Shown one piece after another: positions 29,337 to 34,605 of a stretch of DNA of 64,000 nucleotides. Every line of letters begins with the position of its first letter. Position 1 is the stretch's first letter. The position numbers and the translations under genes are program-made. The stretch lies in contig OZ024740.1 of the NCBI GenBank assembly GCA_964016885.1, positions 56,358,001 through 56,422,000 on the forward strand. The letters run 5' to 3'. This stretch comes from Eledone cirrhosa (lineage: Eukaryota). The notes beneath the pieces are model-generated. The model ran no database searches. It was not told the DNA's origin and saw only the letters and a list, made by a program, of their open reading frames with translations.

Positions 29337-32300
29337 ATTAAGTTAAAGATGTACATCCATATATGTATACTGAAATACTAGTATGTATATGAATACACAC
29401 ACGTATACATATGTAGGTGTACCAAGTTTTTTCACTGGTCACTTTACTGTGAGTGGCCAGCTATTCTGTATGTAAACACACAGACAAACCGGTTTTTAGA
29501 GTCATACTGGTTTTTGAGGAAACACCTCTCCTCTATTCTCCAGAAAGCCAGACAAGGAATATTGAACTAGTTTCGTTGTTGTTACAACTCATCAGCAATA
29601 TTTACCTATCTTCCGGCCTCTCTAGAGAATCGTAAAAGCACATATCGTTATATGCTTTTTCTATGAAAATTAGTAGTGGGCAGACTAATTTGCATAGAGT
29701 GTGAGTAAGTACCGGTTCAACGGAGACGATAAAAACAAATAACGAAACGAAATTAAACTTCGTTTCGTTTGTAACTCACTTTTGTATGACTGACGCTTAA
29801 ACAATTAAGTTAAAGATGTACATCCATATATGTATACTGAAATACTAGTATGTATATGAATACACACACGTATACATATGTAGGTGTACCAAGTTTTTTC
29901 ACTGGTCACTTTACTGTGAGCGGCCAGCTATTCTGTATGTAAACACACAGACAAACCGGTTTTTAGAGTCATACTGGTTTTTGAGGAAACACCTCTCCTC
30001 TATTCTCCAGAAAGCCAGACAAGGAATATTGAACTAGTTTCGTTGTTGTTACAACTCATCAGCAATATTTACCTATCTTCCGGCCTCTCTAGAGAATCGT
30101 AAAAGCACATATCGTTATATGCTTTTTCTATGAAAATTAGTAGTGGGCAGACTAATTTGCATAGAGTGTGAGTAAGTACCGGTTCAACGGAGACGATAAA
30201 AACAAATAACGAAACGAAATTAAACTTCGTTTCGTTTGTAACTCACTTTTGTATGACTGACGCTTAAACAATTAAGTTAAAGATGTACATCCATATATGT
30301 ATACTGAAATACTAGTATGTATATGAATACACACACGTATACATATGTAGGTGTACCAAGTTTTTTCACTGGTCACTTTACTGTGAGCGGCCAGCTATTC
30401 TGTATGTAAACACACAGACAAACCGGTTTTTAGAGTCATACTGGTTTTTGAGGAAACACCTCTCCTCTATTCTCCAGAAAGCCAGACAAGGAATATTGAA
30501 CTAGTTTCGTTGTTGTTACAACTCATCAGCAATATTTACCTATCTTCCGGCCTCTCTAGAGAATCGTAAAAGCACATATCGTTATATGCTTTTTCTATGA
30601 AAATTAGTAGTGGGCAGACTAATTTGCATAGAGTGTGAGTAAGTACCGGTTCAACGGAGACGATAAAAACAAATAACGAAACGAAATTAAACTTCGTTTC
30701 GTTTGTAACTCACTTTTGTATGACTGACGCTTAAACAATTAAGTTAAAGATGTACATCCATATATGTATACTGAAATACTAGTATGTATATGAATACACA
30801 CACGTATACATATGTAGGTGTACCAAGTTTTTTCACTGGTCACTTTACTGTGAGTGGCCAGCTATTCTGTATGTAAACACACAGACAAACCGGTTTTTAG
30901 AGTCATACTGGTTTTTGAGGAAACACCTCTCCTCTATTCTCCAGAAAGCCAGACAAGGAATATTGAACTAGTTTCGTTGTTGTTACAACTCATCAGCAAT
31001 ATTTACCTATCTTCCGGCCTCTCTAGAGAATCGTAAAAGCACATATCGTTATATGCTTTTTCTATGAAAATTAGTAGTGGGCAGACTAATTTGCATAGAG
31101 TGTGAGTAAGTACCGGTTCAACGGAGACGATAAAAACAAATAACGAAACGAAATTAAACTTCGTTTCGTTTGTAACTCACTTTTGTATGACTGACGCTTA
31201 AACAATTAAGTTAAAGATGTACATCCATATATGTATACTGAAATACTAGTATGTATATGAATACACACACGTATACATATGTAGGTGTACCAAGTTTTTT
31301 CACTGGTCACTTTACTGTGAGCGGCCAGCTATTCTGTATGTAAACACACAGACAAACCGGTTTTTAGAGTCATACTGGTTTTTGAGGAAACACCTCTCCT
31401 CTATTCTCCAGAAAGCCAGACAAGGAATATTGAACTAGTTTCGTTGTTGTTACAACTCATCAGCAATATTTACCTATCTTCCGGCCTCTCTAGAGAATCG
31501 TAAAAGCACATATCGTTATATGCTTTTTCTATGAAAATTAGTAGTGGGCAGACTAATTTGCATAGAGTGTGAGTAAGTACCGGTTCAACGGAGACGATAA
31601 AAACAAATAACGAAACGAAATTAAACTTCGTTTCGTTTGTAACTCACTTTTGTATGACTGACGCTTAAACAATTAAGTTAAAGATGTACATCCATATATG
31701 TATACTGAAATACTAGTATGTATATGAATACACACACGTATACATATGTAGGTGTACCAAGTTTTTTCACTGGTCACTTTACTGTGAGCGGCCAGCTATT
31801 CTGTATGTAAACACACAGACAAACCGGTTTTTAGAGTCATACTGGTTTTTGAGGAAACACCTCTCCTCTATTCTCCAGAAAGCCAGACAAGGAATATTGA
31901 ACTAGTTTCGTTGTTGTTACAACTCATCAGCAATATTTACCTATCTTCCGGCCTCTCTAGAGAATCGTAAAAGCACATATCGTTATATGCTTTTTCTATG
32001 AAAATTAGTAGTGGGCAGACTAATTTGCATAGAGTGTGAGTAAGTACCGGTTCAACGGAGACGATAAAAACAAATAACGAAACGAAATTAAACTTCGTTT
32101 CGTTTGTAACTCACTTTTGTATGACTGACGCTTAAACAATTAAGTTAAAGATGTACATCCATATATGTATACTGAAATACTAGTATGTATATGAATACAC
32201 ACACGTATACATATGTAGGTGTACCAAGTTTTTTCACTGGTCACTTTACTGTGAGTGGCCAGCTATTCTGTATGTAAACACACAGACAAACCGGTTTTTA

Positions 32301-34605
32301 GAGTCATACTGGTTTTTGAGGAAACACCTCTCCTCTATTCTCCAGAAAGCCAGACAAGGAATATTGAACTAGTTTCGTTGTTGTTACAACTCATCAGCAA
32401 TATTTACCTATCTTCCGGCCTCTCTAGAGAATCGTAAAAGCACATATCGTTATATGCTTTTTCTATGAAAATTAGTAGTGGGCAGACTAATTTGCATAGA
32501 GTGTGAGTAAGTACCGGTTCAACGGAGACGATAAAAACAAATAACGAAACGAAATTAAACTTCGTTTCGTTTGTAACTCACTTTTGTATGACTGACGCTT
32601 AAACAATTAAGTTAAAGATGTACATCCATATATGTATACTGAAATACTAGTATGTATATGAATACACACACGTATACATATGTAGGTGTACCAAGTTTTT
32701 TCACTGGTCACTTTACTGTGAGCGGCCAGCTATTCTGTATGTAAACACACAGACAAACCGGTTTTTAGAGTCATACTGGTTTTTGAGGAAACACCTCTCC
32801 TCTATTCTCCAGAAAGCCAGACAAGGAATATTGAACTAGTTTCGTTGTTGTTACAACTCATCAGCAATATTTACCTATCTTCCGGCCTCTCTAGAGAATC
32901 GTAAAAGCACATATCGTTATATGCTTTTTCTATGAAAATTAGTAGTGGGCAGACTAATTTGCATAGAGTGTGAGTAAGTACCGGTTCAACGGAGACGATA
33001 AAAACAAATAACGAAACGAAATTAAACTTCGTTTCGTTTGTAACTCACTTTTGTATGACTGACGCTTAAACAATTAAGTTAAAGATGTACATCCATATAT
33101 GTATACTGAAATACTAGTATGTATATGAATACACACACGTATACATATGTAGGTGTACCAAGTTTTTTCACTGGTCACTTTACTGTGAGCGGCCAGCTAT
33201 TCTGTATGTAAACACACAGACAAACCGGTTTTTAGAGTCATACTGGTTTTTGAGGAAACACCTCTCCTCTATTCTCCAGAAAGCCAGACAAGGAATATTG
33301 AACTAGTTTCGTTGTTGTTACAACTCATCAGCAATATTTACCTATCTTCCGGCCTCTCTAGAGAATCGTAAAAGCACATATCGTTATATGCTTTTTCTAT
33401 GAAAATTAGTAGTGGGCAGACTAATTTGCATAGAGTGTGAGTAAGTACCGGTTCAACGGAGACGATAAAAACAAATAACGAAACGAAATTAAACTTCGTT
33501 TCGTTTGTAACTCACTTTTGTATGACTGACGCTTAAACAATTAAGTTAAAGATGTACATCCATATATGTATACTGAAATACTAGTATGTATATGAATACA
33601 CACACGTATACATATGTAGGTGTACCAAGTTTTTTCACTGGTCACTTTACTGTGAGTGGCCAGCTATTCTGTATGTAAACACACAGACAAACCGGTTTTT
33701 AGAGTCATACTGGTTTTTGAGGAAACACCTCTCCTCTATTCTCCAGAAAGCCAGACAAGGAATATTGAACTAGTTTCGTTGTTGTTACAACTCATCAGCA
33801 ATATTTACCTATCTTCCGGCCTCTCTAGAGAATCGTAAAAGCACATATCGTTATATGCTTTTTCTATGAAAATTAGTAGTGGGCAGACTAATTTGCATAG
33901 AGTGTGAGTAAGTACCGGTTCAACGGAGACGATAAAAACAAATAACGAAACGAAATTAAACTTCGTTTCGTTTGTAACTCACTTTTGTATGACTGACGCT
34001 TAAACAATTAAGTTAAAGATGTACATCCATATATGTATACTGAAATACTAGTATGTATATGAATACACACACGTATACATATGTAGGTGTACCAAGTTTT
34101 TTCACTGGTCACTTTACTGTGAGTGGCCAGCTATTCTGTATGTAAACACACAGACAAACCGGTTTTTAGAGTCATACTGGTTTTTGAGGAAACACCTCTC
34201 CTCTATTCTCCAGAAAGCCAGACAAGGAATATTGAACTAGTTTCGTTGTTGTTACAACTCATCAGCAATATTTACCTATCTTCCGGCCTCTCTAGAGAAT
34301 CGTAAAAGCACATATCGTTATATGCTTTTTCTATGAAAATTAGTAGTGGGCAGACTAATTTGCATAGAGTGTGAGTAAGTACCGGTTCAACGGAGACGAT
34401 AAAAACAAATAACGAAACGAAATTAAACTTCGTTTCGTTTGTAACTCACTTTTGTATGACTGACGCTTAAACAATTAAGTTAAAGATGTACATCCATATA
34501 TGTATACTGAAATACTAGTATGTATATGAATACACACACGTATACATATGTAGGTGTACCAAGTTTTTTCACTGGTCACTTTACTGTGAGTGGCCAGCTA
34601 TTCTG
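29337..34605 (-). repeat. left arm of 467-bp tandem array (~11.3 units), HHR on minus strand
   Basis: Exact 467-bp periodicity; ORF-track hits fall at 29453+467n wherever the T allele is present. Begins directly after a (TA)n tract. Confidence 0.97.
29558..29602 (-). ncRNA. minimal type I hammerhead ribozyme (first of 11 copies at 29558+467n)
   Basis: Reverse complement of the motif at 35011-35055. Confidence 0.88.

What the first reader, a model, noticed from the sequence alone, without database searches (positions are those of the whole stretch)
29454..34591. Three-unit higher-order SNP phase in the left arm that the right arm does not mirror
At position 29454+467n the left arm reads T,C,C,T,C,C,T,C,C,T,T,T (gagTggcc/gagCggcc), a 1401-bp higher-order period. 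Every right-arm unit has the T allele, with one private change near 39324. A simple fold-back copy would mirror the pattern. The arms therefore probably came from different templates (for example a trimeric and a monomeric circle), or the left arm expanded afterwards by unequal exchange.
Basis: partly seen in the sequence, partly recalled or inferred. Interest (0 to 1): 0.8.

Follow-up and report, generated by a model that had tools for sequence, protein, structure and literature searches.

The report
Ribozyme retroelement copied from both ends
This 10.7-kb palindrome is a young insertion of a small self-cleaving RNA element, apparently copied into the genome from both sides of one cut; the three-unit pattern in one arm is real in the assembly and most likely records a multi-unit RNA template, though later DNA duplication explains it nearly as well.

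Summary
The pattern is confirmed: the left arm reads T,C,C,T,C,C,T,C,C,T,T,T, the right arm is all T with one private change at 39324, and the C motif occurs only here in the assembly. The 467-bp unit is a non-LTR retrozyme with a minimal type I hammerhead. Among 103 family loci parsed, the usual form is two head-to-head arms in (TA)n, with outer ends fixed at two sites (67 of 80 arm pairs), independent lengths and microhomology at the centre: Penelope-type double priming on an RNA re-read many times. Locus-fixed variants are enriched for A>G on the ribozyme strand (20 of 42, against 10 of 121 singletons), and one unit is hyper-edited from the ribozyme cut onward. So the arms are not fold-back copies. 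But both arms share a private allele in all 23 units, so any two templates were one lineage, and repeated variants are common in long arms (10 of 17). The phase came either from a multimeric RNA (about 0.5) or from DNA duplication after insertion (about 0.38); reads of this individual were not available. The family matters more than the phase.

The parts
29171..29336 (.). (TA)n microsatellite, left part of the insertion target
   Evidence: 63 of 66 canonical loci are TA-flanked on both sides
29337..34605 (+). left arm, 11.28 units of 467 bp, outer end at phase 467 ('466-type' start), inner end at phase 131; + strand is antisense to the ribozyme RNA
29454..34591 (+). phase-117 site of the 12 left-arm units: T,C,C,T,C,C,T,C,C,T,T,T (A or G on the ribozyme strand)
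   Evidence: motif search
29542..29613 (-). type I hammerhead ribozyme of the first unit (one per unit; + strand in the right arm); minimal palindromic helix III; inferred cut between 29566 and 29565 (phase 229/228)
   Evidence: Rfam HH9, 37.7 bits (gathering score 52, not reached), E 1.1e-7; cut site read from the consensus alignment
29758..29758 (+). phase-421 C, present in all 23 covered units of both arms; on this haplotype background seen only at this locus; lies in a 13-bp RNA hairpin
34601..34605 (.). centre junction: 5-bp microhomology shared by the two arms (phase 131 joined to phase 208)
34601..40021 (-). right arm, 11.61 units, inverted, outer end at phase 392, all T at phase 117
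39324..39324 (-). private change, phase 155 G>T, second unit from the right end
39946..40021 (-). segment between the two fixed start sites (phases 392-467), present at one outer end only: analogue of the Penelope 'tail'
   Evidence: comparison with PMC11167929 and PMC8557442
40018..40029 (.). short TA run at the right end, compatible with a target-site duplication of up to 12 bp
   Evidence: unambiguous duplications of 13 and 14 bp at the non-TA loci L044 and L049

Best explanation
The locus is one insertion of a non-LTR retrozyme. Tandem units are transcribed, cut by their hammerheads and in part circularised (inferred from known retrozymes). A Penelope-like RT/GIY-YIG protein cuts both strands of a (TA)n target about 12-14 bp apart and primes two cDNAs, one at each of two fixed internal RNA sites 74 nt apart; each runs for many units, and the two cDNA 3' ends anneal by microhomology, giving head-to-head arms (architecture shown; enzyme and order of steps inferred; about 0.85). 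The T,C,C phase was most likely already in the RNA: a three-unit template with G at site 117 in two units was read a little over three times from the outer end, and the last two left units and the whole right arm come from all-A units of the same 421C lineage. That happened either in this event (trimeric circle, then an in-phase switch to a monomer; about 0.25), or one generation earlier, with both primers reading different parts of one long uncleaved multimer (about 0.2), or by a later in-phase extension of the left end (about 0.05).
For: Hammerhead in every unit. 67 of 80 arm pairs have one 392-type and one 466-type end; centre microhomology averages 2.5 nt v 0.75 expected in the 52 of 71 junctions without inserted bases; 13-14 bp duplications at L044, L049. 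Locus-fixed variants: 20 of 42 are T>C (A>G on the ribozyme strand) v 6 A>G; singletons 10 of 121 v 12 (Fisher p=1.4e-7; nine diverged, noisy or hyper-edited loci and subfamily markers left out): edits are re-read in every pass, as on a circle. L060: 42 of 46 non-marker-filtered changes are T>C, 41 of 42 with 5' U or A, starting at phase 235, just past the cut at 228/229: unlike monomers get joined there. The 117 change is of the T>C class (48% of fixed, 8% of singleton variants). The period starts at the outer end, where synthesis starts. L095 right arm alternates two haplotypes at 7 sites through 4.5 units; L095 and L152 share multi-unit blocks between arms out of mirror register (13 matches/7 mismatches v 5/32; 9/2 v 6/11). 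In L054, L094, L095 and M48 the inner part of one arm matches the partner arm's type, as here. A crude DNA-turnover simulation gives a window-like pattern in 0.1-0.8% of young arms. Intact RT+GIY-YIG frames exist in the genome.
Against: No source locus: the C motif is confined to this arm and no other locus with 421C on this background was found (9 hits unseen). Site 117 is not a recurrent edit, so two independent edits in one trimer are unlikely and a prior generation is needed. If 421C was itself an edit on the founding circle, both arms come from one monomer and 117C must be later. Repeated variants as a class are not significantly T>C-rich (9 of 48; p=0.06 v singletons). Periodic blocks in M112, L086, L152 and M51 lie inside arms, not at the outer end; L087's duplicated unit spans the ribozyme cut. 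In L107 the inner two units carry variants absent from the partner arm. The partner PLE was not identified and neither transcription nor cleavage was shown.
Confidence: 0.5

Rival explanations
1. Both arms were copied from one monomeric circle carrying 421C. Afterwards one left-arm unit mutated at 117, that unit was duplicated, and the three-unit block was repeated twice by unequal exchange, replication slippage at the palindrome, or rolling copy of an excised 1401-bp DNA circle.
For: Needs no missing source locus. Arms normally share one template. 10 of 17 arms of 8 or more units hold repeated variants, several in inner or middle positions and of non-editing types (M112, L086, M96, L062). With the window's left arm set aside as selected, 1 of 7 variants in long arms with at most two variants is repeated (counts), in line with the 11-16% that the turnover simulation gives when tuned to old arms.
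Against: Three or more events (two if rolling) in a locus with only one other change in 10.6 kb; six copies of one variant arose in 6 of 4323 and 16 of 3744 simulated young arms (crude model). The allele class T>C is six times commoner among template-borne than among singleton variants. The block starts at the outer end.
Confidence: 0.36
2. Assembly or polishing artefact: the C alleles, or the number of T,C,C repeats, result from reads joined out of register in a near-perfect 10.7-kb palindromic array.
For: Units differ by one base; a join shifted by three units would add a period without any conflict. No reads of this individual could be laid.
Against: No indels in either arm and a clean substitution outside homopolymers; family-typical ends, junction and flanks; multi-site periodic patterns at other loci. 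A missing-adapter palindrome would mirror flanks and alleles, and these are not mirrored.
Confidence: 0.08
3. Fold-back (self-priming): the right cDNA folded back at phase 208/131 and copied itself to give the left arm; C alleles arose later and spread by gene conversion without change of length.
For: In this locus both arms hold exactly 11 full units and differ by the 75-nt tail plus a 77-nt offset, as a run-off fold-back would give; it is the most symmetric of 77 pairs. Self-priming was proposed for Penelope inversions (PMC3846280, passages).
Against: Family-wide no excess of this signature (6 v 5.4, p=0.47) or of short loops (9 v 5.8, p=0.12); either end type is the longer arm; L037, L054, L071, L088 and L095 share variants in registers that a fold-back cannot give. 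The 39324 change is not mirrored.
Confidence: 0.06

Closest known systems
Non-LTR retrozymes of animals (Cervera and de la Pena 2020, PMC7229834; Li et al. 2026, 10.64898/2026.07.22.740005)
   Same: Non-coding tandem unit with one type I hammerhead each, low GC (36%), strongly self-paired monomer (z -8.9), dispersed arrays, PLE-rich host; minimal helix III like the amphibian motifs that cut best as dimers and leave multimers.
   Different: The texts read describe tandem repeats only. Here nearly every locus has two head-to-head arms with two fixed start sites, and the arrays carry fixed A>G edits and higher-order phases. The 467-bp unit is slightly above the 150-450 bp range of the 2020 paper, inside the 51-972 bp range of the 2026 preprint.
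Endonuclease-bearing Penelope-like elements (Poseidon PAc, PMC11167929; Neptune/Naiad structure, PMC8557442; Adineta Penelopes, PMC3846280)
   Same: Inverted 5'-truncated arm, a tail at one end only, two internal RT start sites, both target strands cut and extended, AT-rich or (TA)n targets, hammerhead in the repeat.
   Different: No ORF (longest stop-free stretch 62 codons); tail about 74 nt rather than 30-40; both arms run for up to 16 units instead of part of one element. No homology to the ends of the 30 GIY-YIG loci tested.
L1 twin priming (recalled, no call)
   Same: Two target primers on RNA, inverted arm, microhomology at the centre.
   Different: In L1 the second primer lands where the first cDNA stops; here both starts are fixed and inner ends are spread over the whole unit.
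Satellite higher-order repeats (recalled, no call)
   Same: A block of several monomers repeated as a unit.
   Different: One base defines the block, three repeats only, in a dispersed retroelement.

Membership tests
non-LTR retrozyme | type I hammerhead in each tandem unit | tested here: met
   Rfam HH9 E 1.1e-7, intact core, below gathering score because helix III is minimal; units identical at the motif
non-LTR retrozyme | short non-coding tandem repeat, GC below 50%, no LTR/PBS/PPT layout | tested here: met
   467 bp, GC about 36%, longest open stretch 62 codons; PBS and PPT not searched for separately
non-LTR retrozyme | dispersed copies made by retrotransposition, with long target-site duplications | tested here: met
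   103 loci on many contigs; 13 and 14 bp duplications; A>G strand bias
non-LTR retrozyme | expressed as linear and circular RNA | tested here: inconclusive
   only indirect: edits fixed in all passes; no run on record as RNA was listed
non-LTR retrozyme | ribozyme self-cleaves | not testable with these tools
   indirect only: L060 editing boundary and L068 deletions begin at the predicted cut
autonomous Penelope-like element | RT plus GIY-YIG reading frame | tested here: not met
   no ORF in the unit; not a member, works like one
Penelope-type insertion product | inverted truncated arm, tail at one end, AT-rich or microsatellite target | tested here: met
Penelope-type insertion product | homology to the pLTR of an identified autonomous PLE | tested here: inconclusive
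   30 of about 10,600 GIY-YIG candidates examined; none had the unit as its terminal repeat
Foldback/MITE-type DNA transposon with long inverted repeats | identical outer termini in inverted orientation | tested here: not met
   outer ends differ (392 v 466) in 67 of 80 pairs; same type in 3

The most novel reading that the evidence does not exclude
These arrays are tape recordings of Penelope-type reverse transcription on ribozyme RNA circles: two RT sites start at two fixed positions, roll independently on ADAR-edited monomeric or multimeric circles, can change template in phase, and join by microhomology. This locus records a trimeric circle read three times followed by a switch to the partner arm's monomer, so retrotransposition itself writes higher-order repeats, and A-to-I editing is the main source of new family alleles.
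Probability: 0.3. Interest if true: 0.8.

Novelty: new variant of a known kind. Interest (0 to 1): 0.6.

Why it matters
Rolling-circle reverse transcription of retrozyme circles by a Penelope-like RT is a hypothesis (PMC7229834, Discussion; the 2026 preprint calls the mechanism unresolved), and the origin of Penelope inversions is stated to be undefined (PMC8557442) or ascribed to self-priming (PMC3846280). This young family gives a genomic test of both: edits fixed in every unit of both arms point to a circle, and fixed paired starts with independent arm lengths point to two target primers. It also shows A-to-I edits of a non-coding RNA entering the germ-line genome. The three-unit phase is one informative case among several, not a unique feature.

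Tried and rejected
Reads: no RNA holder listed. Contigs of four coded runs were laid on one unit; runs X1 and X2 show only T at phase 191, where this locus and many others in the assembly have C, so they do not represent the assembled individual and cannot test the phase. C at 117 appears there in 3 contigs of X1 and 1 of X10, at least partly within a diverged subfamily, and in none of X2; not used. They do show TA-joined loose ends at both fixed start sites, and a single 497-nt head-to-tail contig in a second organism (X4). Source locus for the C allele: none. Autonomous partner: 25 GIY-YIG loci plus 5 with long frames examined; the hammerhead near L149/L170 belongs to a related retrozyme inserted beside a decayed PLE, not to its terminal repeat. 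Excess of spacing 2 and 4 over 1 and 3 (11, 6, 7, 3 arms) was considered as proof of multimers and dropped, because larger duplications capture more variants. The idea that haplotype switches fall at the ribozyme cut holds for L060, is compatible for L107 and M51, and fails for M48, L054, L087 and L151. A first microhomology count was spoiled by subfamily alleles and redone. Rfam miRNA and sRNA matches were far below gathering scores and ignored. Earlier scan findings: three look-ups returned nothing.

Full report
Observation. The region is two arrays of a 467-bp unit in opposite orientation, 29337-34605 and 34601-40021. With phase 1 at 29338, the phase-117 site reads T,C,C,T,C,C,T,C,C,T,T,T in the left arm, which has no other difference, and T in all 12 right-arm units, whose only change is phase 155 G>T at 39324. 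The period holds for ten units from the outer end. Of 924 arrangements of six C among twelve sites 24 are as periodic. The exact C motif has six matches in the assembly, all here.

What the unit is. Rfam finds a type I hammerhead on the minus strand of the left arm (29542-29613, HH9, E 1.1e-7, 37.7 bits against a gathering score of 52), with an intact core and a very short palindromic helix III. The monomer folds far better than shuffles (z -8.9) and has no reading frame over 62 codons. This fits the non-LTR retrozymes (PMC7229834: passages and Discussion read; preprint 10.64898/2026.07.22.740005: parts 1-3 of 5 read). The ribozyme RNA points outward in both arms, so the arms are joined 5' to 5' and each outer end is where a cDNA would start.

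The family. Four DNA searches and one motif search of the own genome (only 27-39 of 100-410 candidates scored in each DNA search, so this is a sample biased to close relatives and long arrays) led to 103 parsed loci including this one. Of 80 plus/minus arm pairs, 67 have one outer end near phase 392 and one near 466, 3 have two of a kind and 10 have another end. Inner ends are spread over the unit, arm lengths are weakly or not correlated (rho 0.18, p 0.11, 77 pairs), and either end type can be the longer arm (37 v 29 of 66). Of 66 canonical abutting pairs 63 lie in TA repeats; two outside them show 13 and 14 bp duplications. Of 71 centre junctions scored, 52 have no inserted bases and these share 2.5 nt on average against 0.75 expected; this locus shares 5. 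That is the Penelope layout: inverted truncated arm, one-sided tail, microsatellite target (PMC8557442, passages), and two internal RT start sites with both strands cut and extended (PMC11167929, parts 1-2 of 4). The genome has about 10,600 GIY-YIG candidates and at least one intact RT+GIY-YIG frame, but I did not find the partner element.

Evidence for an RNA circle. Many loci carry private variants in every unit of both arms (for example L058, L069, L071, L072, L073, L089, L106, M74). After leaving out subfamily markers and nine diverged, noisy or hyper-edited loci, 20 of 42 such fixed variants are T>C on the unit's plus strand, that is A>G on the ribozyme strand, against 6 of the opposite kind; singletons are symmetric, 10 against 12 of 121. 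In L060 one unit carries 42 T>C changes, 41 with U or A as 5' neighbour on the RNA, the ADAR preference (recalled), and they begin at phase 235, just past the predicted cut. L068 has units whose deletion starts at the cut. An edit re-read in every pass of both arms is what a monomeric circle gives; L060 shows that unlike monomers can be joined at the cut.

What this says about the two arms here. Both arms carry C at phase 421 in all 23 covered units. Of 164 genome-wide hits of that motif 155 were examined, and outside this locus all lie on another background. So the arms come from one molecule or one source lineage, as is usual: 69 of 77 abutting pairs have no majority allele confined to one arm. 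Fold-back is disfavoured for the family (no excess of full palindromes, 6 v 5.4; shared variants in impossible registers at L037, L054, L071, L088, L095), although this locus does have equal unit counts in both arms, which I cannot explain beyond chance or concurrent synthesis.

The phase. Repeated variants are common: 10 of 17 arms of eight or more units have them, with spacing 2 in 11 arms, 4 in 6 and 3 in 3 of 79 arms over 2.2 units; only this one holds period 3 over three cycles. For a multimeric RNA: the L095 right arm alternates two haplotypes at seven sites, L095 and L152 share multi-unit blocks between arms out of mirror register, and in L054, L094, L095 and M48 (the last with a 958-bp gap between arms) the inner part of one arm matches the partner arm, as the last T units do here; L107 goes the other way. 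The 117 change is of the editing class and A117 is partly paired in the folded circle. For DNA turnover after insertion: blocks in M112, L086, L152 and M51 lie inside arms, most repeated variants are not T>C (9 of 48), no source locus is in the assembly, and 117 is not a recurrent edit. A crude simulation tuned to the old arms (about 0.36 of variants repeated) predicts 11-16% repeated variants in young arms, which matches 1 of 7 once this arm is set aside, but gives six copies of one variant in only 0.14-0.4% and a pattern this periodic in 0.6-0.8% of young arms. I have no calibrated figure for the RNA route. My odds: template-borne 0.5, later DNA duplication 0.36, assembly artefact 0.08, fold-back with conversion 0.06. 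The retrozyme identity and the double-primed layout are much firmer (about 0.9 and 0.85).

Reads. No run on record as RNA was listed, and the four runs laid were contigs from other material, so the phase is unconfirmed on single molecules.

Novelty. Retrozymes and Penelope inversions are each known. In seven literature searches and the texts read, I found no description of double-armed retrozyme arrays with paired fixed starts, of A-to-I edits fixed in retrozyme copies, or of higher-order phases in them; PMC3846280 (passages) explains Penelope inversions by self-priming. The library lacks most subscription papers, and I opened no supplements, where such structures may be drawn. Verdict: new variant of a known kind, interest 0.6, carried by the family-wide mechanism more than by the three-unit phase.

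Noticed in passing
L060:3254-3555: One retrozyme unit with 42 A>G changes on the ribozyme strand and ADAR-like neighbours, starting at the ribozyme cut: a hyper-edited RNA monomer fixed in the genome.
   Followed up: partly
L070:3500-6200; L170:7500-8650; window 26877 (-), 49728 (-), 50350 (+): Related retrozyme families (about 62% identical to this unit) with a similar hammerhead; at L070 and L170 they show the same head-to-head arms in (TA)n.
   Followed up: partly
window 11165, 12804, 27221, 60343: Further hammerhead-like core motifs of other sequence families (motif scan only).
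   Followed up: no
window 28153-29179: Decayed pogo/Tigger-type transposase fragment (BrkDBD and Tc5 DNA-binding domains) directly left of the TA target.
   Followed up: partly
window 40026-40722: About 680-bp older insertion right of the array, with 50-bp direct repeats near its ends, a (TA)n end and an apparent 13-bp target duplication.
   Followed up: no
window 3580-4032, 4841-5384, 44461-44807, 51809-52148, 59382-59559, 61404-61594, 63456-63707: A dispersed repeat of about 200 bp in partial tandems, in both orientations, seven or more copies in the window.
   Followed up: no
L078+L051 (merged as M51): A 27.5-unit single arm with an in-phase change of subfamily markers after 8 units and non-canonical ends: a candidate source-type array.
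   Followed up: partly
L170:4600-7330: Decayed PLE (RT-like and GIY-YIG-like frames, a cysteine linker motif) with an inverted terminal arm between (TA)n tracts: the same layout as the retrozyme insertions.
   Followed up: partly
L165:2809-5622 (-), L166:1988-4519, L167:1275-4562: Open frames of 938, 844 and 1096 codons with RT domains (GIY-YIG confirmed by Pfam in the first): candidate active PLEs.
   Followed up: partly
window 29337-40021: Both arms hold exactly 11 full units, the most symmetric of 77 arm pairs; unexplained.
   Followed up: partly
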